Shown here in pieces: positions 18,481 through 30,995 of a DNA stretch of 42,753 nucleotides (positions within the stretch are counted from its first letter, which is position 1; every line of letters begins with the position of its first letter). This DNA comes from a virus (taxonomy: Duplodnaviria; Heunggongvirae; Uroviricota; Caudoviricetes). A program made the translations under genes and the position numbers. The notes beneath the pieces are model-generated. The model saw only the letters and a list, made by a program, of their open reading frames with translations, did not search any database and was not told the DNA's origin. The stretch lies in IMG/VR virus record IMGVR_UViG_2663763477_000009. The stretch is one strand, 5' to 3'.

Positions 18481-19956
18481 TTAGGAGCGCCAAAAAAAAC
18501 CTGAAAACAATATAATAACAGGATAAATTTCAAGGCGACCAAGAATCATAGCTATGCACATTAAATATTTTGCAATGTCATTAAGCACTCCGAATGACGA
18601 TGCAGTAGCCCCAAAACCTAATCCCATATTATTAATACATGCAGCCACTGTTGCAAATGATGTAAGAAAATCATATCCCATACCATTTAACACCAGTATA
18701 AAAAACACCGTGAAGAGAGTATAAAGAAAAAAGAAACTCCATACAGACCTCATTACACGATCTGTAACTATCTTCCCTCCTACATTTACACTCAACAACG
18801 CTCTGGGATGAGAAAGCTGATTTATCTCGTGTTTGCTTTGTTTGAAAAGTATAAGAAATCGAAGTGACTTAATTCCACCACAGGTTGAACCTATACATCC
18901 CCCAAAGAAACTTGACAACAGCAAAAACACTATCGTGTGCGTGGGCCAGTTTGCATAATCCTGCGTAGCTAAACCATTATCAGTGAGCATGGAGCTGGCA
19001 AGAAAAAACGAATGAATAAAACTTCCATGCAAGTCATACATACCTATATGCCAGACCTGGAAAGAGGTAACAATGATCACCCCTAAGGCTATTAACAGAA
19101 AGAAACGAAGTTCAATATCTCTGATTAAAGGTTTTATCGTTTTTCTGCTAATAACAATATACCAAAGAGTGAAGTTGAAAGCCGATAGCAGGGAAAAAGA
19201 ACCAGCCACCAGCTCAACCAAATAGTTATTAAAATATCCGATACTCTCGCTATGAGTTGAGAAACCACCAAGCGAAACTGTGGAAATCCCGTGACAAATA
19301 GCATCAAACAAAGGCATTCCTGCAAGTCTATAACAGACAATACAAGCAATACCTAATAAAGAATAAGTTATCCACAGTGTCCGTGACGTATCGGCCAGGC
19401 GGGGAGTGAGTTTGTCATCCTTAAATGGCCCCGGCATTTCTGACTGATAAAGCTTTGCACCACCAATACCCAATAATGGCAATACTGCAACCGCCAGAAC
19501 AATAACTCCTAAACCACCTATAAAATTTAACTGTGACCGATAGTACAAATATGCCCGAGGTAATGAACTAACATCATCAATTACAGTTGCTCCTGTTGTT
19601 GTTATTCCAGAAACCCCTTCAAACAGAGCATCAATGAACGTTAAATTAAGTTCTGAGTCAATCCATAAAGGGAATGCACTAATAACAGAAAACAAAATCC
19701 AAAACATTACAATTATAATAAACCCATCACGGGTACGTAATTGAATGCCAGATTTCTTAGTTGTATACCACGCTCCGCCACCAATGCAAAAAAATATAAC
19801 GAAAGTTATAAAGAAAACGAACAGGCTTTTTTCTTTATAAAACAATGCTACAACCATTGGTGGCAACATTGAAAGACTATAGAGCCAAACCAGGAACCCA
19901 CACATATGAGTAACAACTCTTACATGAGATGTATTCATATCTAAATATTCTTTCAA
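18481..19956 (-). CDS. trkG: Trk-family potassium uptake membrane protein TrkG (copy 1, full length)
   Basis: 491-aa polytopic membrane protein that I recognise as the prophage-borne TrkH paralogue TrkG. Confidence 0.9.
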   Translation of the reverse strand: MKEYLDMNTSHVRVVTHMCGFLVWLYSLSMLPPMVVALFYKEKSLFVFFITFVIFFCIGGGAWYTTKKSGIQLRTRDGFIIIVMFWILFSVISAFPLWIDSELNLTFIDALFEGVSGITTTGATVIDDVSSLPRAYLYYRSQLNFIGGLGVIVLAVAVLPLLGIGGAKLYQSEMPGPFKDDKLTPRLADTSRTLWITYSLLGIACIVCYRLAGMPLFDAICHGISTVSLGGFSTHSESIGYFNNYLVELVAGSFSLLSAFNFTLWYIVISRKTIKPLIRDIELRFFLLIALGVIIVTSFQVWHIGMYDLHGSFIHSFFLASSMLTDNGLATQDYANWPTHTIVFLLLSSFFGGCIGSTCGGIKSLRFLILFKQSKHEINQLSHPRALLSVNVGGKIVTDRVMRSVWSFFFLYTLFTVFFILVLNGMGYDFLTSFATVAACINNMGLGFGATASSFGVLNDIAKYLMCIAMILGRLEIYPVIILFSGFFWRS

Positions 19957-20075
19957 TTATAACCACCTTGCTGCAATATTATGATTATACTGTATAAAAT
20001 TTAACTCCTCTTAGATCTTACTTCACTGTTCCTTATGAAACAATCATCAAAATGAATCATATTGTAGTTAAGATT

Positions 20076-20552
20076 TTACTTTAAACACTGCTCGGTTATG
20101 TATTGCTGAGCACCTTCAAGTTGGGCCTGCATCATTACCAGTCGTTCCCGGAGGGTGAAATAATCCCGTTCAGCGGTGTCTGCCAGTCGGGGGCTGGTTG
20201 CATTATCCACGCCGGAGGCGGTGGTGGCTTCACGCACTGACTGACAGACTGCTTTGATGTGCAACCGACGACGACCAGCGGCAACATCATCACGCAGAGC
20301 ATCATTTTCAGCTTTCGCATCAGCTAACTCCTTCGTGTATTTTGCATCGAGCGCAGCAACATCACGCTGACGCATCTGCATGTCAGTAATTGCCGCGTTC
20401 GCCAGCTTCAGTTCTCTGGCATTTTTGTCGCGCTGGGCTTTGTAGGTAATGGCGTTATCACGGTAATGATTAACAGCCCATGACAGGCAGACGATGATGC
20501 AGATAACCAGAGCGGAGATAATCGCGGTGACTCTGCTCATTGCTGCCCCCAC
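20076..20552 (-). CDS. rzpR: Spanin inner-membrane subunit Rz (copy 1; without an adjacent holin/endolysin)
   Basis: 158 aa with an N-terminal TM segment and coiled-coil periplasmic domain; Rz1 is embedded in the +1 frame. Confidence 0.85.
20135..20320 (-). CDS. rzoR: Spanin outer-membrane lipoprotein Rz1 (copy 1), embedded in Rz
   Basis: 61 aa with lipobox VVGC and a Pro-rich tail ([14 protein letters not shown]), entirely inside the Rz frame. Confidence 0.8.
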
Positions 20553-20583
20553 AAACAGACTTCACGCTCAATCTCACGACGAG

Positions 20584-22053
20584 TCATGAGACCTTTCCAT
20601 TGCTTACCGCCAGCATATGTCCAGCGACGTAGCTGACAAGAATCATAGCTATGCACATTAAATATTTTGCAATGTCATTAAGCACTCCGAATGACGATGC
20701 AGTAGCCCCAAAACCTAATCCCATATTATTAATACATGCAGCCACTGTTGCAAATGATGTAAGAAAATCATATCCCATACCATTTAACACCAGTATAAAA
20801 AACACCGTGAAGAGAGTATAAAGAAAAAAGAAACTCCATACAGACCTCATTACACGATCTGTAACTATCTTCCCTCCTACATTTACACTCAACAACGCTC
20901 TGGGATGAGAAAGCTGATTTATCTCGTGTTTGCTTTGTTTGAAAAGTATAAGAAATCGAAGTGACTTAATTCCACCACAGGTTGAACCTATACATCCCCC
21001 AAAGAAACTTGACAACAGCAAAAACACTATCGTGTGCGTGGGCCAGTTTGCATAATCCTGCGTAGCTAAACCATTATCAGTGAGCATGGAGCTGGCAAGA
21101 AAAAACGAATGAATAAAACTTCCATGCAAGTCATACATACCTATATGCCAGACCTGGAAAGAGGTAACAATGATCACCCCTAAGGCTATTAACAGAAAGA
21201 AACGAAGTTCAATATCTCTGATTAAAGGTTTTATCGTTTTTCTGCTAATAACAATATACCAAAGAGTGAAGTTGAAAGCCGATAGCAGGGAAAAAGAACC
21301 AGCCACCAGCTCAACCAAATAGTTATTAAAATATCCGATACTCTCGCTATGAGTTGAGAAACCACCAAGCGAAACTGTGGAAATCCCGTGACAAATAGCA
21401 TCAAACAAAGGCATTCCTGCAAGTCTATAACAGACAATACAAGCAATACCTAATAAAGAATAAGTTATCCACAGTGTCCGTGACGTATCGGCCAGGCGGG
21501 GAGTGAGTTTGTCATCCTTAAATGGCCCCGGCATTTCTGACTGATAAAGCTTTGCACCACCAATACCCAATAATGGCAATACTGCAACCGCCAGAACAAT
21601 AACTCCTAAACCACCTATAAAATTTAACTGTGACCGATAGTACAAATATGCCCGAGGTAATGAACTAACATCATCAATTACAGTTGCTCCTGTTGTTGTT
21701 ATTCCAGAAACCCCTTCAAACAGAGCATCAATGAACGTTAAATTAAGTTCTGAGTCAATCCATAAAGGGAATGCACTAATAACAGAAAACAAAATCCAAA
21801 ACATTACAATTATAATAAACCCATCACGGGTACGTAATTGAATGCCAGATTTCTTAGTTGTATACCACGCTCCGCCACCAATGCAAAAAAATATAACGAA
21901 AGTTATAAAGAAAACGAACAGGCTTTTTTCTTTATAAAACAATGCTACAACCATTGGTGGCAACATTGAAAGACTATAGAGCCAAACCAGGAACCCACAC
22001 ATATGAGTAACAACTCTTACATGAGATGTATTCATATCTAAATATTCTTTCAA
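20584..22053 (-). CDS. trkG: TrkG copy 2 with a replaced C-terminus (last 19 aa exchanged for 17 unrelated aa at the duplication junction)
   Basis: Identical to copy 1 until ...CIAMIL, then diverges where the unit joins the endolysin 3' fragment. Confidence 0.8.
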
Positions 22054-22172
22054 TTATAACCACCTTGCTGCAATATTATGATTATACTGTATAAAATTTA
22101 ACTCCTCTTAGATCTTACTTCACTGTTCCTTATGAAACAATCATCAAAATGAATCATATTGTAGTTAAGATT

Positions 22173-22649
22173 TTACTTTAAACACTGCTCGGTTATGTAT
22201 TGCTGAGCACCTTCAAGTTGGGCCTGCATCATTACCAGTCGTTCCCGGAGGGTGAAATAATCCCGTTCAGCGGTGTCTGCCAGTCGGGGGGAGGCTGCAT
22301 TATCCACGCCGGAGGCGGTGGTGGCTTCACGCACTGACTGACAGACTGCTTTGATGTGCAACCGACGACGACCAGCGGCAACATCATCACGCAGAGCATC
22401 ATTTTCAGCTTTCGCATCAGCTAACTCCTTCGTGTATTTTGCATCGAGCGCAGCAACATCACGCTGACGCATCTGCATGTCAGTAATTGCCGCGTTCGCC
22501 AGCTTCAGTTCTCTGGCATTTTTGTCGCGCTGGGCTTTGTAGGTAATGGCGTTATCACGGTAATGATTAACAGCCCATGACAGGCAGACGATGATGCAGA
22601 TAACCAGAGCGGAGATAATCGCGGTTACTCTGTTCATTGCTGACCCCAC
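22173..22649 (-). CDS. Spanin inner-membrane subunit Rz (copy 2, part of the lysis cassette)
   Basis: 158 aa; differs from copy 1 at three residues; its start overlaps the endolysin stop. Confidence 0.85.
22232..22417 (-). CDS. Spanin outer-membrane lipoprotein Rz1 (copy 2), embedded in Rz
   Basis: 61-aa lipoprotein; one Ala-to-Pro difference from copy 1. Confidence 0.8.
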
Positions 22650-24572: not shown

Positions 24573-25508
24573 TTTTCCTCACATATGTCATATAGTAAAG
24601 GATTATATATACCGTTGTTTTGGACGCTCAAACAGCGAATCAGATCAAATAAAACGCACATTTGTTAACATTTACACAAAGTCTGCGTGGGATATTCTGA
24701 AAGAATATCCATAATGTGGAGAGAATCTATTGAAGTGCATGGTGCCGGGTGCCTCCCGGTGAACAAAATGTTCGTGATACCTGTCGGCGACAGAAAAGGT
24801 TAATGGTATCACCCCACCGCACAGGGGGATTCACCATGCAGGAGTTTTCTTAGCAAACTCACTGCGCGCCCGGCAACTCCCAACCACATAAAATGCGGAG
24901 TTTGTGGCATTTATGCATATAACTCGCAGGAATTATCTTAAAAAACTGATGTCGATCCGGATTAAAAAGAAGCAGGTCATCATCAGATGACTGGAAAAAA
25001 GGAAAACAAAAAATACTCATCATACAGTTTTGATTGCAGGGATGAGCCTGCTATGCACAATATGCAGAATATAAGCAAGATAAAAATATGCAGGCATATT
25101 ATTTCGGATCTTGTTATTAACACAACCTTTTTAATAATCATTTGGCATACAATAAACCAGCCCAAAAAGAACCGCCTAAACAGGCGGTTGGTCAATACAA
25201 AGGATGCTTCGTCTTTATTATAGTAATCTGAGGCGTCGGGTGTCTTGTATCAGACAACATATTGTCCCGCTAAACAGCGAATTACAAACCACCCTGCAAT
25301 GATCTCTCATCTCATTTTATATGAGTTGACGACATCAGGATAACGCATCATCAGCCCCTGCCAAGAAATATCAAAACTCCCGCCAGCAATGTGTTATCAC
25401 AATATTGTAAAAAAAACACAGCACCGAAACTATAACTGGTCTCTGTTATAATTTGGAGCAGAAAGACCAGTTGCCCAACTAGCAGCATTCTCCCCTGCTT
25501 TCCTGACG

Positions 25509-25537
25509 TAAAAAAACCGCATTAAGCGGTTTTTTTA
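25509..25537. terminator. Bidirectional intrinsic terminator hairpin (candidate tR' of the late operon)
   Basis: A7-accgc-attaa-gcggt-T7: a GC stem flanked by an A-run and a T-run, about 80 nt downstream of the Q-like gene. Confidence 0.55.
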
Positions 25538-25616
25538 CGATGTCCATGTCTGCAATCCGCCTCGCGATACAGCTTTGCGAAGCATAGCAAAATTGAAGCA
25601 GTTTATACGTAAGAAA

Positions 25617-26159
25617 TCAAGCCATTTTCTCAGCAAATGATTCACGCATGGGAATATATAGGGCATACTCAGCAACAGCTAACCAATTAGCAATCCGTTT
25701 TTCGCATGTGCTAAAACACCACTCTGGGTGTGCATCATTTAGCAATTCAGCCATTTTGCGCTTAGTCATCCCCCGCCCTTCATAGCGTTGCCGGAGAATG
25801 CAAATCAATCCTGGATGCTCTGCCAGCACCTCACTTATGACTCGATCAATACATAACGCCTCTGCATCAGTACAATGCGCCAGCCAGCTCTTTTGCTTGC
25901 CGTTGATCATCTCTCGCAAAAACGCTTCCAGCTCAGCTTTCTCTATTCCCGCTTTTTTCATTCTGCGCAGGGCTTCATTAATGGCTGTTTTCGTCAGTTT
26001 TTTGGATGCCAACAACTGATTGAACATATTCCCTGACCTGCCACCGCCAATATACGACCAGCGCCCCCACATACGTAGTTTTCCCTGAATCCAGACACTT
26101 TCCAGCGTGGTGAGGCGAAGGTGTTCTCCGCTTTTTCCTGTATTCGTTGGGTAAATCAT
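25617..26159 (-). CDS. Late-gene antiterminator Q-like protein (putative)
   Basis: 180 aa, Cys pairs, located at the end of the nin region directly upstream of the late/lysis region; assigned mainly by position. Confidence 0.5.
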   Translation of the reverse strand: MIYPTNTGKSGEHLRLTTLESVWIQGKLRMWGRWSYIGGGRSGNMFNQLLASKKLTKTAINEALRRMKKAGIEKAELEAFLREMINGKQKSWLAHCTDAEALCIDRVISEVLAEHPGLICILRQRYEGRGMTKRKMAELLNDAHPEWCFSTCEKRIANWLAVAEYALYIPMRESFAEKMA

Positions 26160-26446
26160 AAATGACCTTTCTTTCTCCAGATTTCTTGTGTGCGAAAAAC
26201 CCCTTCAGCATGCATCAGGCGCAATTCTTCTTTGGTGTAATCGCTGGTTTTTACCCGCCCGTCGATTAGATCGTGGCATGAGCTACAGGCTATCGCCGCC
26301 TGCATATCATGTGGTTTTGTCGCTGTTCCGCACGTCCCCGCCAGCCTGTAATGCGCCAGCACAGAGGTTTCGGGATTGTGATTGCAGTAGCCAGGGATTC
26401 TGATCTGGCACATCTGGCCTTTAGCCGCTTTACGTAAATTCACCAT
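26156..26446 (-). CDS. YbcO-like nin-region protein (DUF1364, zinc-binding)
   Basis: 96 aa with the pattern CQIRIPGYCNHNPETSVLAH...CGT..KP...AIACSSCHD that I recognise from the DLP12 ybcO family. Confidence 0.65.
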   Translation of the reverse strand: MVNLRKAAKGQMCQIRIPGYCNHNPETSVLAHYRLAGTCGTATKPHDMQAAIACSSCHDLIDGRVKTSDYTKEELRLMHAEGVFRTQEIWRKKGHL

Positions 26447-27045
26447 TACGCAAACTCCAGTAGTTGTGCGGCCACATTTTCAACTTCCTCCTGAGAGGAG
26501 AATTTACGGAACAGAATCCAGTTCCACAGCACATTCAGTACAGATTTATAAACCTGCTGAAACTCGACTTCGTCCATATTCGCAAAAGCGATGGATTTTG
26601 CCCGACGCCCACGGCTACCGTCCGGATAAATATGCTCGGTGTAAAATCCGGCCTGAATGGTTACCCACTCGCGGAAAGCCTCAAACGACTTTAGCAACGC
26701 CGTATCCCGGGTTCTACGAGTCGCAACGGTGTTAAGGTATTGCTCTGCGGCATCACTCAGGGCTGGCGTGTGTTCCCGACCAACTGATTCGCACAGGTAA
26801 TCAACGAAACCAGACAGCAGTTCTCGTTCGCGAGGCGTGATCGCCCCACCGACCGGAGTCCAGTAATCGAAACCCAGTTGCAGGAGTTTGAAAAAACGCT
26901 TGTGGAATGCGTAGTTACACACACGCTTAAAGTCTGCGTGTATCCACTCACCTATTTTGATTTGATGCAGAAAATCGCAACTCTCCGGCGTCGCCGGGAG
27001 AAGTAATCCGGAAGAGGTTTGTTTGACCAGTTGTATATGCGCCAT
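26446..27045 (-). CDS. nin-region hypothetical protein (DUF1367-like)
   Basis: 199-aa ORF translationally coupled to the ybcO-like gene. Confidence 0.5.
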   Translation of the reverse strand: MAHIQLVKQTSSGLLLPATPESCDFLHQIKIGEWIHADFKRVCNYAFHKRFFKLLQLGFDYWTPVGGAITPRERELLSGFVDYLCESVGREHTPALSDAAEQYLNTVATRRTRDTALLKSFEAFREWVTIQAGFYTEHIYPDGSRGRRAKSIAFANMDEVEFQQVYKSVLNVLWNWILFRKFSSQEEVENVAAQLLEFA

Positions 27046-27325
27046 TTCTCAATCTCTCGATGGCGCAGCGCAGCAGATGCCAGTTGTTCAGGCTGACGAA
27101 TAAAGTATAAATAAACTGGCTATGGTGTAAAGCCCCACATAGCATGAACAAACACTACATATCAAATAGCTGGTACAAGGATAGAAATACGACACTTATT
27201 ATTAAAAACGATTAGATAAATTACATTTTAATGTTATGCAAAAGTTCTTTTTTATCATAACATTTCAATAAAAGCATTACAGATGCAATCATCCCGTCAT
27301 CATCAATTATTTAAGGTGGTTAAAC

Positions 27326-27412
27326 ATGGAAAATAACAAGTTCGCACATCTCGCTCCTTTTTTATCCGTAATCCTTTTCGCTTGTTGTTTTATATGGGCA
27401 TTATTTTTATAA
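27326..27412 (+). CDS. Small hydrophobic peptide (28 aa), candidate membrane peptide or type-I-toxin-like
   Basis: ATG preceded by AAGGTGG at about 6 nt; reads MENNKFAHLAPFLSVILFACCFIWALFL (one predicted TM helix); sits in an AT-rich intergenic region. Confidence 0.35.
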   Translation: MENNKFAHLAPFLSVILFACCFIWALFL

Positions 27413-27820
27413 AGTAGCCACATGATAAGTTGCTGGAATCATATTTCCCACTCAAGTCATTAACATTTGATAAGATATATCTAAAAGGACGCCTTTACAT
27501 TATTTATGCGTATATAATTTATTTATATACACAGTAAAGGTATCCTGGGAAAATATTTATCGTTAAAAAATACATCATAAATAATTAAGCTGAAATTTCA
27601 GAACACAACTAATACACACAATAAGGTTCAGTAACAGTAATCTATGTGGACTACATCGAGATTTTTTGATTAAACTTTAATAACTTATTCCTAACACACA
27701 GAATGCATAAACTAAAAGTAAAACAAATAGTTATACGAAAAACAACCATATTTATTCTATCTTCTCCTCTAATCAACATATCAATTATGTGTTTCATAAC
27801 AGCTTGACATAACCCTCCAA

Positions 27821-27843
27821 AAGATGCATTTTTAATGCATGTT
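27821..27843 (+). promoter_or_regulatory. NsrR-type operator (11-1-11 inverted repeat) upstream of the yeaR-like gene
   Basis: AAGATGCATTT-T-TAATGCATGTT, close to the NsrR consensus as I recall it; a TTGACA hexamer lies just upstream at about 27804-27809. Confidence 0.5.
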
Positions 27844-27858
27844 TTGGAGGAGGTGGTT

Positions 27859-28197
27859 ATGACACACAAGAGAATTCCTAAAGATTGGGTAATCAAACGC
27901 TCAACTCCGTTCTTCACAAAAGAGAACGTACCTTCAGCGTTATTAACACATCATAATACAGCAGCAGGTGTTTTTGGGCAGTTGTGCGTAATGGAAGGCA
28001 CTGTAACATATTATGGTTTTACTGATGAGAATGCTACTGAACCGGAGATAAAAGTAGTCATTAATGCTGGCGCTTTTGCAACAAGCCCACCACAATACTG
28101 GCACCGTGTTGAACTAAGCGATGATGCTCAGTTTAATATTAACTTTTGGGTCGCTCCAGACTTTTCGGGCGAAAAAGTCTATAGCACCAAAAAATAG
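27859..28197 (+). CDS. YeaR-like protein (DUF1971 family)
   Basis: 112 aa from the ATG after a GGAGGAGG RBS; RSTPFFTKENVP...GQLCVMEGTVTYYGF...FNINFWVAPDF parallels the chromosomal YeaR sequence as I recall it. Confidence 0.75.
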   Translation: MTHKRIPKDWVIKRSTPFFTKENVPSALLTHHNTAAGVFGQLCVMEGTVTYYGFTDENATEPEIKVVINAGAFATSPPQYWHRVELSDDAQFNINFWVAPDFSGEKVYSTKK

Positions 28198-28226
28198 ATG
28201 ATCATATTAAAAATGCTTTAACAGTC

Positions 28227-28263
28227 AGACCCGGCAGGGCTATCCCCGACGGGTCTCATTTTT
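28227..28263 (+). terminator. Terminator-like hairpin after the yeaR-like gene
   Basis: Stem agacccg/cgggtct around a structured loop, followed by TCATTTTTG. Confidence 0.4.
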
Positions 28264-28817
28264 GTAAATATATTGGTTCTACATTGACAGGAGACTTCAA
28301 CCATAAGAAGTAATCTGAATACTTGAGCAATAAATTTACTTAAGATTAATGAGCGCACCTTGCCGGACAAAGATAAACCAAGGTAACACCTTTTTTCTAG
28401 CCAGTATGTAATCAATCAGAAAGCCGCTCCATAAGAACAACAGCAAGACAATAAATTGCCATTACAGCCGCAATAGCCAGCGCACATTTGAGAACCAGCA
28501 CGACAACCCCCTGTATTAGACGCACACCAGTCCTGATAAATATGAGGCTGTCTCGTCAGTGATTCAATACAACTATTGGGTATAGTTTCTGTGATTTTAT
28601 TCTGTAGAAATGGAACACAACAACCAGTCACCACCAGCACTTCCTTAAATGCTCTAAGTCAGAAACAAGCCAACATTTTAGTCCGCTTTGAGCGATCTGC
28701 AGACATTGCTAGCAGCCTTCTGTGTGAATTCTCAGGGAGCAGGTCGGCATAGCATCACGTTGAGGCTCTTACCCTACTTGTTCACACCAACCCTAACTCC
28801 ACAGACTGATTCATAAA

Positions 28818-29819
28818 TTAGTAATCTGCGTGTTTCGCACTTTTCAGAAATGCTTTCATATTTTCATTAGGTCGCTCAATTTCGAAGTTACTTCCATATA
28901 ACTCTTGTAATTTTGGCCATAACTTACTTAATAACCCTCTCCTGCGATAAAATGGATGTATCCAAACGGTAGATAGGTACGGAGAATTTGCATTTGAATT
29001 GTTTATTGTGACCAGCCCAACTAAACATTGTCGATAACCACTATTATCCATTGATTGTATTTCTTCGACGAATGGATACGCGATTACATCAGTCCAACCA
29101 TGATCGGTTGTATCCCATTGCATTCCGTCATGACATTCCTTCGACTGATAGCGGCGTAAAGCTACACACGCGAGCTTTTGCCAATCTGGAGAATTAATTG
29201 TGATCTCTTCATCGTATGACGCGCCTATTGGAGCGGGTATTGGTCTGATTAATCCAGCATGGCATTCATCATAGAACTTCATGTTTCCCTCAGAAACGTT
29301 GTGTACGTTGGGTTGCTCCATGTGTGCGCCATTCAAAAATAGCTCTGATAGTAGTGTATCTACACTGTAATCTTTATTGATTATTGTCGGCTTAGAGTTT
29401 TTCTTATTAAGGCCGCGAGTAACGATTTTTTGATCAATGTTAACAACATGGAATAATCCGTCGGGGAGGCTAGCGAACCACGATGGGGCATCGGACCAGA
29501 ATAGCATGCCTTTTGTACTTCTTAAGAGTTTAATTAAGTTAATACAAGCTTCTTCACTAGTCTTGCCGTTGATGCGAAGTATGTTAGGACTAAAGTAATA
29601 TTCATCCATATCAGGGAATGCAGCTTCGCAAAACTCCTGTACATAATTTAGCACCTGGATTCTACAGAGATCATCATAGCTGGTAATAACTAAGGGGGTA
29701 TCTTCATTACTATTATGATTATCAATAATGCAATCTATAGCGAGACTTACTGCTTTGCGTATCACTTCAGTTGAATCTAACGACTCTAAAAATTTTGTCT
29801 TTCGTGTGCGAATATCCAT
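28818..29819 (-). CDS. Cargo gene B: hypothetical protein with a GNAT-like C-terminal region
   Basis: 333 aa in an AT-rich block; C-terminus VWIHPFYRRRGLLSKLWPKLQELYG resembles the GNAT acetyl-CoA-binding motif; start lies 15 nt after the stop of gene A. Confidence 0.6.
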   Translation of the reverse strand: MDIRTRKTKFLESLDSTEVIRKAVSLAIDCIIDNHNSNEDTPLVITSYDDLCRIQVLNYVQEFCEAAFPDMDEYYFSPNILRINGKTSEEACINLIKLLRSTKGMLFWSDAPSWFASLPDGLFHVVNIDQKIVTRGLNKKNSKPTIINKDYSVDTLLSELFLNGAHMEQPNVHNVSEGNMKFYDECHAGLIRPIPAPIGASYDEEITINSPDWQKLACVALRRYQSKECHDGMQWDTTDHGWTDVIAYPFVEEIQSMDNSGYRQCLVGLVTINNSNANSPYLSTVWIHPFYRRRGLLSKLWPKLQELYGSNFEIERPNENMKAFLKSAKHADY

Positions 29820-29834
29820 GTATGACCTGCGCTA

Positions 29835-30857
29835 TTAAAATTCATGAATGAACGGTTTGTCATCTGGTTGCAAAATGGTGGTTTTATTCGTTGCTACATT
29901 TAAACTGTTGTAGAGCATAATTGCCAGGTTCGATGCATTTTCAATCAGCGTTTCAAGATCCTGGTCTGTAATCACTACGAGGTTCCCTTCTTTATCCTTT
30001 CCACCACGATGCACTAAGTGATTTCGATTGAGGGTTGCCAATTCAATAGCTTCTATCGGACAGTCTTTTTGTACTTTTATATCGAATGTAGCTTCATAGC
30101 GGTCGATTACCTTTTTAGTGCTATGCCAGCTTGCACTGATCAAGTGTTCCTTGATTGACCTGATTAGCTCTCCCCTAATTTTCTCGATGGGTTCACCCTT
30201 GAAAGGCAACGCAGCAATATCTTTGCTTACTTTAAATTCAGTCTTACCTTTTTCTATACAATTGGCTATGTAGACATCATCTTTCTCTATAGAATTAATG
30301 AATAGCTCAACATAAAGCGTTTCCAAAGCTGTAATAACATTCGTGTAGAGCAAACTAAGCAAGTGGTTTTTTTGCTGTTGTTCAGTTTTATCTTTTGCAA
30401 GTTTTTTTATTTTATCGATATTATCAATGAATTTTAAATACGGATTACCGGAAGACGTTACAGCGTCGTAGATATCATCATCGTACCAATCATCTATATT
30501 ATTTGAGTTTCCAGACCAGTCAAAACATTGTGTTTGTAATTCATCTACTAATTCCTCAATATACTCAGATTTAACATATTGACCGAAGATGGATTGTAGT
30601 TCTTCGCTCGCATCATACGGCCCGCCATATATGTAAGCATAGCCACCTTCTCTACTTTCATACGGACAAGCATTTGCCGGATCTTCAAAGTTTTCAAAGA
30701 ACCAGTTTTTCATTACTTCGAGTTGATCTTTTTTGCTTATGTATTTTAAAGATTTTAGTGGAACTTTCTTTCCATTAACCTCGAAAACAATTTTCACGAT
30801 GTAACGCTCCCTTGTATCAATTGCGCAACTATTATACCACAGCGAAATACAGGGCAT
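29835..30857 (-). CDS. Cargo gene A: hypothetical protein with a HEPN-like R-N-x3-H motif near the C-terminus
   Basis: 340 aa from the ATG preceded by AGGAGG; motif LATLNRNHLVHRGG in a helical C-terminal region; AT-rich codon usage unlike the flanking prophage genes. Confidence 0.6.
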   Translation of the reverse strand: MPCISLWYNSCAIDTRERYIVKIVFEVNGKKVPLKSLKYISKKDQLEVMKNWFFENFEDPANACPYESREGGYAYIYGGPYDASEELQSIFGQYVKSEYIEELVDELQTQCFDWSGNSNNIDDWYDDDIYDAVTSSGNPYLKFIDNIDKIKKLAKDKTEQQQKNHLLSLLYTNVITALETLYVELFINSIEKDDVYIANCIEKGKTEFKVSKDIAALPFKGEPIEKIRGELIRSIKEHLISASWHSTKKVIDRYEATFDIKVQKDCPIEAIELATLNRNHLVHRGGKDKEGNLVVITDQDLETLIENASNLAIMLYNSLNVATNKTTILQPDDKPFIHEF

Positions 30858-30995
30858 AACCTGCCTCCTTAAACTAACATACCATGAGCCAGCAATGTCC
30901 GCTATTGGCACAAAGCGGACAACCACGCTAGCTCTCCCCTGTGCCAGAAAAATGTCAATTTACATATGAACTAATGCTCTTTGATCTAGTAACGT

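What the first reader, a model, noticed from the sequence alone, without database searches (positions are those of the whole stretch)
27300..27412. Unannotated 28-codon hydrophobic ORF with a strong Shine-Dalgarno in AT-rich spacer
ATG at 27326 is preceded by AAGGTGG at ideal spacing and encodes MENNKFAHLAPFLSVILFACCFIWALFL, a short polar head followed by one predicted TM helix. That is the architecture of small membrane toxins of type I toxin-antitoxin loci and of other small regulatory membrane peptides. It lies in an otherwise non-coding AT-rich stretch between the nin genes and the yeaR-like gene, and is too short to appear in the ORF track.
Basis: seen in the sequence. Interest (0 to 1): 0.5.

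Follow-up and report, generated by a model that had tools for sequence, protein, structure and literature searches.

The report
Unannotated conserved 28-residue prophage membrane peptide
The 28-codon reading frame is a real, selectively maintained but never-annotated gene for a tiny membrane peptide, carried with its own conserved control element by prophages in about one fifth of complete E. coli genomes; whether it is a toxin or a harmless membrane regulator is still open.

Summary
In detail: the ORF runs from ATG 27326 to TAA 27412, is preceded by AAGGTGG (27313-27319, 6-nt spacer) and encodes MENNKFAHLAPFLSVILFACCFIWALFL in a 25-33% GC spacer of a Rac-like prophage. An ORF this short is common by chance. 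Its conservation is not. All 281 fetched instances keep exactly 28 codons (27 DNA haplotypes, 21 protein variants). It is the only one of six frames open in every haplotype, and dN/dS between three deep clades is 0.06-0.24. The gene belongs to a self-contained module of about 240 bp (about 27174-27415). The module has a nearly invariant 47-nt block (27196-27242), a poorly conserved leader of fixed length (85-92 nt), a Shine-Dalgarno site and the ORF. It occurs in three genomic contexts, and homology ends at the stop codon. The block is found in 1177 of 5426 complete E. coli genomes and is never annotated. The peptide matches no Pfam, NCBIfam, PHROG or PADLOC family. The type I toxin reading stays plausible (about 0.4). 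It is supported by the module's autonomy, the ultra-conserved upstream element and strand-asymmetric base-pair conservation. It is not demonstrated: no antitoxin RNA with a terminator was found, the mRNA is unstructured and there are no toxicity data. A non-toxic membrane modulator is almost as likely.

The parts
27326..27412 (+). 28-codon ORF plus TAA stop; peptide MENNKFAHLAPFLSVILFACCFIWALFL (polar head residues 1-8, hydrophobic helix residues 9-28 running to the C-terminus)
   Evidence: Intact in 281 of 281 fetched instances and the only frame open in all 27 haplotypes. dN/dS 0.06-0.24 between clades. W vs L046: 10 synonymous and 5 non-synonymous changes, Fisher p=7e-6.
27313..27319 (+). 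Shine-Dalgarno AAGGTGG, 6 nt before the ATG
   Evidence: Relatives have AAGGTGA, AAAGTGA, AAAGCGA or AAGGTAG, so the site is kept but its strength varies.
27243..27312 (+). Poorly conserved leader of nearly fixed length
   Evidence: 79% of columns vary and 10 columns have gaps. Even so, the distance from block to ATG is 85-92 nt in 118 of 118 loci.
27196..27242 (.). Nearly invariant 47-nt block (TTATTATTAAAAACGATTAGATAAATTACATTTTAATGTTATGCAA): control element of the module, more conserved than the ORF
   Evidence: 21% variable columns and pi 0.068, against pi 0.107 for the ORF and 0.26 for the leader. Unique in the window. Every locus found through the block alone has the intact ORF downstream. 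Present in 1177 of 5426 E. coli genomes.
27174..27202 (+). Candidate sense promoter: -35 TACAAG (27174-27179), 17-nt spacer, -10 TATTAT (27197-27202); predicted start near 27210. Low confidence in this window.
   Evidence: The -10 is invariant in all clades. Clade B has TTGCTG-N16/17-TATTAT, its best plus-strand PWM hit. Clade C homology and the IS2 insertion in L036 both place the left edge of the module at about 27166-27174. The stricter consensus scan did not report it.
27231..27263 (+). Hairpin S: ATGTTATG (27231-27238) / CATAACAT (27256-27263), 17-nt loop
   Evidence: 99.7% of cells paired on the plus strand and 91.3% on the minus strand. Three pairs change only to G-U on the plus strand; there are no double compensatory changes.
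27193..27210 (-). Hairpin T: 5-bp stem with 8-nt loop. On the minus strand it reads CGUUU-UUAAUAAU-AAGUG.
   Evidence: It is the only consensus structure RNAalifold finds on the minus strand. Pair types are GC/GU/AU and CG/UG/UA, and 1 of 49 haplotypes is broken. 99.2% paired on the minus strand against 92.4% on the plus strand. It is thermodynamically weak and is not in the MFE fold of the window's own sequence.
27254..27282 (-). Candidate antisense promoter: -35 CTGTAA (27282-27277), 17 nt, extended -10 TGT-TATGAT (27262-27254); predicted start near 27247, reading through the 47-nt block
   Evidence: Best minus-strand PWM hit in the window's module, and found at the same alignment position in clades A and B. 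Poor in clade C. Not reported by the stricter scan. Inferred only.

Best explanation
Shown: 27326-27412 is a real protein-coding gene under purifying selection. It is the coding part of an autonomous cargo module of about 240 bp (about 27174-27415). The module lies on the strand opposite the prophage early-right (nin/Q) operon and has moved between at least three genomic contexts. Inferred from the sequence: the product is a 28-residue peptide whose short polar head (MENNK.AH) stays in the cytoplasm. Its single hydrophobic helix (residues 9-28) ends at the C-terminus, so it must insert into the inner membrane after release from the ribosome. Mechanism I commit to (inference, about 0.4): a type I toxin-antitoxin-like unit. 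The peptide damages or depolarises the inner membrane when made in excess. Its synthesis is held down through the invariant element that forms the -10 region and first ~35 nt of the leader. The most likely agent is a short AU-rich transcript from the opposite strand (about 27247 to 27185) that pairs with the 5' end of the mRNA. Such a unit would stabilise the prophage cargo region or act in abortive infection, like the hok locus that is its immediate convergent neighbour in most relatives. The confidence given is for this toxin-like mechanism. Confidence that it is a genuine selected small-protein gene is about 0.9.
For: Gene reality:
- All 281 fetched instances have 28 codons and a stop; there are 27 haplotypes and 21 protein variants.
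- Only plus frame 0 is open in all haplotypes.
- The antisense 38-aa ORF shares the wobble positions but is broken by stops in clades B and C and in L002.
- Variable sites by codon position are 8/11/19, p=0.025.
- dN/dS between clades is 0.06-0.24; W vs L046 Fisher p=7e-6.
- Only one gap column falls in the ORF (one haplotype, L068, near the stop), against 10 in the 71-nt leader.
- Homology to clades B and C stops right after the stop codon.

Autonomy:
- The same module lies next to DUF1367 + DUF1971, next to DUF1367 or a YdfU-type nin region + convergent hok, next to an S8 peptidase, and in another species beside an integrase fragment and yebY-copD-yobA.

Toxin-like regulation:
- The 47-nt block lies 86-130 nt upstream of the ATG and is more conserved than the ORF.
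- Block and ORF are strictly linked, 118 of 118 loci.
- Hairpin S is kept only on the plus strand and hairpin T only on the minus strand, with GC/GU/AU and CG/UG/UA series.
- A minus-strand promoter-like site is positionally conserved in clades A and B.
- From my own knowledge, the size and architecture equal those of ShoB, TisB, ZorO and DinQ.
Against: - No match to any type I toxin or small-protein family in Pfam, NCBIfam, PHROGs or PADLOC.
- No Rfam family in the region.
- No intrinsic terminator on either strand within the module.
- The candidate antisense RNA is almost unstructured: -2.8 kcal/mol and z +0.9 in the window. Its 5-bp hairpin is too weak for a classical terminator.
- The mRNA shows no significant structure (z -0.46). 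RNAalifold finds no SD-sequestering helix, unlike characterised type I toxin mRNAs.
- The covariation rests on very few independent events (shuffles 14/500), and one haplotype (L008) contradicts the minus-strand reading.
- The promoter assignments are weak in this window and were not found by the stricter scan.
- Specific residues are invariant (P11, S14, C21, W24), and not one of 281 copies is inactivated. Both facts fit a beneficial, non-toxic membrane protein equally well.
- There are no expression or toxicity data.
Confidence: 0.4

Rival explanations
1. A non-toxic small inner-membrane protein, carried as a lysogenic-conversion 'moron'. Its conserved helix binds a larger membrane protein and modulates it. 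The partner could be a transporter, a sensor kinase, a protease such as FtsH, or a phage receptor or injection channel (superinfection exclusion). This would work in the manner of MgtR, KdpF, MgtS, AcrZ or PmrR. The 47-nt block would be a promoter plus an operator for a DNA-binding regulator or H-NS nucleation site, not an RNA target.
For: - Strong purifying selection with invariant specific residues (A7, H8, P11, F12-L13-S14, C21, W24) rather than generic hydrophobicity.
- Never inactivated in 281 copies, even in IS-riddled defective prophages.
- Open, AU-rich translation initiation region without sequestering structure.
- No antisense terminator.
- The block overlaps the predicted -10/+1 region, where repressors usually bind, and contains TAGATAAATT. 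From memory, that is 9 of 10 matches to the H-NS high-affinity motif TCGATAAATT.
- It lies in an AT-rich hot spot that holds other cargo and defence-like genes.
Against: - No partner gene travels with it, and its neighbours differ between contexts.
- Characterised regulatory peptides are usually encoded with or near their targets.
- A promoter or operator more conserved than the coding sequence across clades with saturated synonymous divergence is unusual.
- Strand-specific G-U patterns are not expected for a purely DNA-level element.
- The helical periodicity of conservation is not significant (p=0.2).
Confidence: 0.35
2. The ORF is incidental. The stretch is conserved for nucleic-acid reasons, such as part of the nin-operon leader, terminator or antitermination region, or a non-coding RNA, and no peptide is made.
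For: The adjacent non-coding block is even more conserved than the ORF. The SD is weakened to AAAGCGAG in a common haplotype. Several codons (P11-F12-L13, A25 to the stop) show no synonymous change. There is no experimental evidence of translation.
Against: The substitutions are excess third-position and conservative changes. dN/dS is 0.06-0.24. ATG and TAA are kept at fixed positions, there are essentially no indels, and this is the only open frame of six in all haplotypes. The 84 nt show no conserved RNA structure. The module also exists away from any nin operon (clade C).
Confidence: 0.07
3. A leader peptide or upstream ORF whose translation controls a downstream gene on the same strand. 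In this window that gene would be the DUF1971/YeaR-like gene 447 nt downstream.
For: No terminator was found between the ORF and the DUF1971 gene in this window. They are on the same strand and at a fixed distance in clade A (447 or about 503 nt).
Against: In clades B and C nothing follows on the same strand. The ORF abuts a convergent hok terminator, an S8 peptidase gene or an integrase fragment. The DUF1971 gene has its own perfect -35 (TTGACA, 27804-27809) and its own operator-like palindrome.
Confidence: 0.04
4. The 5' remnant of a longer ancestral gene, truncated when cargo DNA was inserted.
For: Homology between clades ends within a few bases of the stop codon.
Against: The last five codons and the TAA stop are themselves conserved in all three clades despite unrelated downstream DNA. 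tblastn finds no longer homologue in phage or plasmid collections at E up to 10. Purifying selection persists.
Confidence: 0.03

Closest known systems
Short type I toxins with a distant 5'-leader target (TisB/IstR-1, ZorO/OrzO, DinQ/AgrB, ShoB/OhsC of E. coli)
   Same: A 26-29 residue peptide with one hydrophobic helix. A stand-alone locus. A leader of about 90-120 nt whose most conserved element lies about 100 nt upstream of the start codon, which is where those antitoxin RNAs pair (my own knowledge of these systems). Hints of transcription from both strands.
   Different: No sequence similarity to any of them (no Pfam or NCBIfam hit at E up to 10). No sRNA gene with a terminator. The mRNA is not detectably structured and the SD is free. 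The peptide is uniformly hydrophobic, not amphipathic and charged like TisB, ZorO or DinQ. Toxicity is untested.
hok/sok (Hok/Gef family), the immediate neighbour in most relatives
   Same: Same prophage cargo hot spot between the replication and nin genes. A small membrane peptide. A possible cis-antisense regulator overlapping the 5' part of the mRNA.
   Different: Hok is about 50 aa with a periplasmic Cys-containing tail, needs mok for translation, and has a long folded mRNA with an fbi element and a strong terminator. The present ORF is convergent to hok, is retained where hok is absent (this window), and is unrelated in sequence.
Small regulatory inner-membrane peptides (MgtR 30 aa, KdpF 29 aa, PmrR 29 aa, MgtS 31 aa, AcrZ 49 aa)
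   Same: A short polar N-terminus followed by one helix that runs to or near the C-terminus. Residue-specific conservation within the helix.
   Different: Those peptides are chromosomal and encoded with or co-regulated with their targets. This one is on mobile DNA, has no constant neighbour, and has an unusually conserved upstream element. No homology was detected.
Prophage morons (e.g. lambda bor/lom, HK97 gp15; emrE-ybcL-ybcM of DLP12 and relBE-hokD of Qin at the equivalent position)
   Same: An AT-rich insert with its own expression signals, oriented against the phage operon and located at a cargo hot spot between the replication and nin genes. Retained in defective prophages.
   Different: Far smaller than described morons. 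It also behaves as the constant border element of the hot spot while the neighbouring cargo varies.

Membership tests
Type I toxin-antitoxin system (generic definition) | Small (<60 aa) hydrophobic peptide with a predicted transmembrane helix | tested here: met
   28 aa; residues 9-28 are uninterrupted hydrophobic residues. Read from the sequence; no TM predictor was run.
Type I toxin-antitoxin system (generic definition) | An antisense or divergently encoded small RNA complementary to the toxin mRNA | tested here: inconclusive
   There is a positionally conserved minus-strand promoter-like site in clades A and B. A hairpin is maintained on the minus strand through GC/GU/AU and CG/UG/UA series. 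Against this, there is no terminator, no Rfam hit, the candidate RNA is unstructured, and few independent substitutions underlie the signal.
Type I toxin-antitoxin system (generic definition) | Toxin mRNA translationally inert through stable 5'/3' structure or a sequestered SD | tested here: not met
   MFE z-score -0.46. The consensus fold is -6.9 kcal/mol with no helix covering the SD or ATG.
Type I toxin-antitoxin system (generic definition) | Growth arrest or membrane damage on over-expression, neutralised by the RNA | not testable with these tools
   Needs experiments.
Known type I toxin and small-protein sequence families (Hok/Gef, Ldr, Ibs, ShoB, TisB, DinQ, ZorO, Fst and NCBIfam small-membrane-protein models) | Significant match to the family profile | tested here: not met
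   No Pfam hit at E up to 10. NCBIfam gave only a sub-threshold Lp6.6 lipoprotein hit (E 0.05-0.75). PHROGs gave only a spurious Rz-like hit at E 0.24. PADLOC gave nothing.
Bacterial lipoprotein or signal peptide | A lipobox [LVI][ASTVI][GAS]C conserved before an invariant Cys, with a mature domain after it | tested here: not met
   LFAC in this window becomes FVLC, FVFC or FVSC in relatives, so the -1 residue is not small. Only 7 residues would follow the Cys.
Prophage moron / autonomous cargo gene | A self-contained unit with its own expression signals, composition unlike the flanking phage genes, and presence or absence independent of neighbours | tested here: met
   GC is about 30% against about 50% for the nin genes. 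The module boundaries are shared by three contexts. It is oriented against the nin/Q operon. Promoter function itself was not tested.
Bona fide protein-coding gene | Frame conservation, purifying selection at the protein level and a translation start signal | tested here: met
   (see the report). An SD is present in all clades, though of variable strength. Translation itself was not tested.

The most novel reading that the evidence does not exclude
The module is a previously unrecognised type I toxin-antitoxin family, present in about 22% of complete E. coli genomes and in another enterobacterial species. Its antitoxin would be an unusually AU-rich, nearly unstructured cis-antisense RNA lacking a classical terminator. 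That RNA would pair with the extreme 5' end of the toxin mRNA, about 90 nt from a freely accessible ribosome-binding site. It would therefore act through mRNA decay or transcriptional interference, not through occlusion of a ribosome-binding or standby site. The module would mark and stabilise the border of a prophage defence and cargo hot spot next to hok.
Probability: 0.3. Interest if true: 0.65.

Novelty: new member of a known kind. Interest (0 to 1): 0.5.

Why it matters
A gene present in more than a thousand complete E. coli genomes, and in Shigella, E. ruysiae and one other enterobacterial species, is missing from every annotation examined. It is also absent from Pfam, NCBIfam, PHROGs and a 15-billion-sequence protein collection, simply because it is 28 codons long. 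It sits at the constant edge of a prophage hot spot whose variable side carries hok, a YeaR-like gene and several defence-like gene sets. It could therefore be relevant to prophage maintenance, phage exclusion or membrane physiology of lysogens. If it proves to be a toxin with an antisense regulator, it adds a new and very widespread type I family with an atypical regulatory geometry. If it is a modulator, it is a handle on an unknown membrane target. Either way it is cheap to test: strains with 100% identical sequence are in public collections, e.g. NCTC9066.

Tried and rejected
1. The antisense 38-aa ORF 27307-27423 (minus strand) has wobble positions that coincide with those of the plus ORF, so it could mimic the third-position signal. 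I rejected it because it is interrupted by stops in clades B and C and in L002.
2. Lipoprotein or signal-peptide reading, prompted by weak Lp6.6 and Rz-like hits. Rejected because the lipobox is not conserved and the mature part would be only 7 residues.
3. Homology to K-12 Qin rem, or to the ydfU-rem-hokD spacer at the equivalent position. No DNA similarity was found.
4. Known RNA families. Only chance-level miRNA and snoRNA hits appeared.
5. Repetition of the 47-nt block elsewhere in the prophage, for example at the immunity region, which would point to a phage repressor operator. There is no second copy.
6. Helical periodicity of conservation as evidence for a binding face. Not significant (p=0.2).
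7. A conserved SD-sequestering or long-range mRNA fold. Only weak AU pairing was seen, with no covariation.
8. Inverted repeats between the ORF body and downstream DNA appear in all three clades. They are T-run/A-run matches in AT-rich DNA and are not homologous, so I treated them as chance.
9. Literature. Peptide strings are absent from 8 million papers and from the supplements of the Sakai small-gene Ribo-seq study. Nothing specific came up for DUF1367 with small proteins.
10. The search for homologous proteins, the search of protein representatives, the look-up of encoding contigs and structure prediction cannot take a 28-residue query. Wider protein-level searches were therefore limited to tblastn and pattern scans.

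Full report
**1. The observation**

The window is a complete Rac-like lambdoid prophage. Reading right to left on the minus strand it has integrase, recE, the immunity region, replication genes, cargo, the nin genes, a Q-like gene, lysis genes, trkG, and head and tail genes.

The ORF is exactly as reported. ATG is at 27326 and TAA ends at 27412. It has 28 codons encoding MENNKFAHLAPFLSVILFACCFIWALFL, preceded by AAGGTGG at 27313-27319 with a 6-nt spacer. It lies in an 813-bp spacer of 25-33% GC. The spacer separates the first nin gene (DUF1367, 26446-27045, minus strand) from a DUF1971/YeaR-like gene (27859-28197, plus strand).

An ORF of this length means nothing alone: 84 ORFs of at least 20 aa overlap 25000-30000. 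The test is conservation.

**2. It is a real, selected coding sequence**

The spacer matches 850 complete E. coli genomes, and nothing is annotated over the ORF in any listed genome. About 366 of these genomes match only window 27050-27413, at about 76% identity. In other words, homology ends at the ORF's stop codon.

I collected instances from several sources:
- E. coli genomes and four phages.
- One genome per species, which gave Shigella flexneri and Escherichia ruysiae.
- IMG/VR.
- Metagenomes.

All 163 assessable loci carry an intact 28-codon frame. A second search used only the upstream non-coding block as bait. It returned 118 assessable loci, and all 118 have the intact ORF 85-92 nt downstream.

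Over all 281 fetched instances (some contigs were fetched twice) there are 27 ORF haplotypes and 21 protein variants, and none is disrupted. Plus frame 0 is the only one of six frames open in every haplotype.

There are three deep clades:
- Clade A is the window type.
- Clade B reads MENNKSAHY...
- Clade C comprises L046 and L089-L091.

Nei-Gojobori dN/dS between clades is 0.06-0.24. For the window against L046 there are 10 synonymous and 5 non-synonymous differences over 16 and 68 sites (Fisher p=7e-6). Variable sites fall 8/11/19 on codon positions 1/2/3 (p=0.025).

A 38-aa antisense ORF (27307-27423) shares the same wobble positions. It is broken by stops in clades B and C and in L002, so it is not the constrained frame.

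The ORF has essentially no indels, whereas the 71-nt leader has 10 gap columns. I put the probability that this is a genuine protein-coding gene at about 0.9. What is missing is direct evidence of translation.

**3. Anatomy of the module**

Conservation is sharply structured:
- A 47-nt block (27196-27242) is nearly invariant: 21% variable columns, pi 0.068.
- The following leader (27243-27313) is almost free to vary (79% variable, pi 0.26) but keeps its length.
- The ORF is intermediate (45% variable, pi 0.107).

The left edge of the module is defined twice, and both place it at about 27166-27174. Clade C homology starts at about 27174. An IS2 insertion in L036 sits about 30 nt upstream of the block and leaves the module intact. 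The right edge is the stop codon.

The module occurs in different surroundings:
- DUF1367 on the left with DUF1971 on the right (this window).
- DUF1367, or a different nin set (a protein of about 90 aa, YdfU-like and RusA), on the left with a convergent hok gene 107-124 nt downstream.
- An S8 peptidase gene on the right.
- In clade C, beside an integrase fragment next to yebY-copD-yobA. That flank is only 83% identical to E. coli, so this is another enterobacterial species.

The module is therefore autonomous. It is not a leader for a downstream gene, not a truncated larger gene and not part of hok. The block alone is found in 1177 of 5426 complete E. coli genomes, at 1241 places and at most 2 per genome.

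**4. What the peptide looks like**

The polar head is MENNK.AH and is conserved. Pro11 follows, and then a hydrophobic run extends to the very C-terminus. M1, N3, N4, H8, P11, L13, S14, I16, F18, W24, F27 and L28 are invariant across the 21 variants; A7, F12, L17, C21 and A25 each differ in only one (E2 is G in three).

By the positive-inside rule the head should be cytoplasmic. Because the helix is C-terminal, insertion must follow release from the ribosome. Both points are inference from general knowledge.

The peptide matches no known family:
- Pfam, NCBIfam, PHROGs and PADLOC give no hit.
- The exact sequences are absent from a 15-billion-protein collection.
- tblastn against phage and plasmid collections finds only the family itself.

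A lipoprotein reading fails because the lipobox is not conserved.

**5. How it is controlled: evidence and limits**

No stringent sigma-70 promoter or terminator is found in the module. A softer PWM scan gives two candidates.

The first is a sense promoter whose -10 (TATTAT, 27197-27202) is invariant. Its -35 is good in clade B (TTGCTG) and poor here (TACAAG), and it coincides with the left edge of the module. It predicts an mRNA 5' end near 27210 and a leader of about 116 nt.

The second is a minus-strand promoter-like site, TGT-TATGAT at 27262-27254 with -35 CTGTAA. It lies at the same alignment position in clades A and B and is poor in clade C. It would send a transcript through the block.

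Two small helices show opposite strand preference:
- Hairpin S (27231-38 / 27256-63) is paired in 99.7% of cells on the plus strand and 91.3% on the minus strand.
- Hairpin T (27193-97 / 27206-10) is paired in 99.2% of cells on the minus strand and 92.4% on the plus strand. Its pair series are GC/GU/AU and CG/UG/UA. It is the only consensus structure RNAalifold finds on the minus strand.

This is what overlapping sense and antisense RNAs would produce, and it would explain why the block is more conserved than the protein. The case is thin, however:
- Few independent substitutions underlie it (14/500 shuffles).
- One haplotype (L008) contradicts it.
- Hairpin T is too weak to be a normal terminator and is not in the window's own MFE fold.
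- The candidate RNA is essentially unstructured.
- The mRNA has no significant structure (z -0.46) and no helix over the SD.
- Rfam finds nothing.

A DNA-level operator or H-NS site overlapping -10/+1 is a live alternative.

**6. Mechanism and rivals**

I commit, at about 0.4, to a type I toxin-antitoxin-like unit. In this model a membrane-inserting peptide is harmful in excess, and it is restrained through the invariant 5' element, probably by an antisense transcript.

The closest rival (about 0.35) is a non-toxic membrane modulator or exclusion factor of the MgtR/KdpF/AcrZ kind, carried as a moron.

Three minor rivals are disfavoured by the data above:
- Incidental ORF (0.07).
- Leader peptide (0.04).
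- Truncated gene (0.03).

The generic type I definition is only partly met. The small hydrophobic peptide criterion is met. The antitoxin RNA is inconclusive. The structured inert mRNA criterion is not met. Toxicity is untestable here. Membership of any known toxin family is not met. I therefore do not file it as a member of a known family. At most it works like one.

**7. Novelty and score**

I found no annotation, family model or paper for it. Bulk small-ORF catalogues may list it, but I could not query them.

It is a new member of a known kind: small membrane-protein genes, possibly type I toxins, on prophages. It is notable for its prevalence and for its very conserved control element. Interest 0.5.

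Noticed in passing
window 27804-27861: The DUF1971/YeaR-like gene has a perfect -35 (TTGACA, 27804-27809). It also has a 17-nt inverted repeat, CCTCCAAAAGATGCATT / AATGCATGTTTTGGAGG (27814-27830 / 27834-27850, 94% complementary), whose right arm contains the gene's GGAGG Shine-Dalgarno. The core AAGATGCATTT-T-TAATGCATGTT resembles, from memory, the 11-1-11 NsrR operator that controls chromosomal yeaR-yoaG. This suggests a nitric-oxide-responsive prophage copy, or an SD-sequestering hairpin.
   Followed up: no
window 27046-27145 (minus strand): The about 100 nt upstream of the first nin gene are almost invariant, even in prophages where that gene is different (DUF1367 versus a protein of about 90 aa plus a YdfU-like protein). 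They contain a strong promoter-like site on the minus strand, TTTACA-16-TATACT (27131 to 27104, 10 of 12 matches). The nin/Q operon may have its own promoter or another conserved leader function.
   Followed up: partly
window 28818-30926 (minus strand); L003, L004, L036: The slot next to the module is a variable cargo and defence-like hot spot. This window has a 333-aa protein with a sub-threshold GNAT hit and a 363-aa protein with a sub-threshold HEPN/RES N-terminal domain hit; neither matches PADLOC. Relatives carry an AAA ATPase with DUF262, an S8 peptidase with an FtsH-like protein, or a 752-aa ATPase-like protein.
   Followed up: partly
window 18481-22649: A tandem duplication with a 2097-bp period (100% identical over the 300 nt compared). 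It gives two TrkH-family (trkG-like) genes of 491 and 489 aa, each followed by a 158-aa Rz-type lysis gene.
   Followed up: partly
window 28416-28640 versus L047 3565-3861; L002: The sequence beyond hok in hok-type relatives reappears in this window just past the DUF1971 gene. The L002-type phages have both DUF1971 and hok. The window's arrangement therefore looks like small ORF - DUF1971 insertion - hok deleted.
   Followed up: no
L090 2501-3738; L046: The clade C copy of the module lies beside an integrase fragment next to yebY-copD-yobA in a non-E. coli enterobacterium. From memory, this is the ryeA/ryeB (SdsR) small-RNA locus described as an insertion hot spot for foreign DNA in Salmonella.
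   Followed up: partly
L036 1520-2793; L001 511-1739: IS2 (IS3-family) copies interrupt relatives close to the module. In L036 the insertion is about 30 nt upstream of the conserved block and leaves block and ORF intact. In L001 it splits the lysozyme gene rrrD.
   Followed up: no
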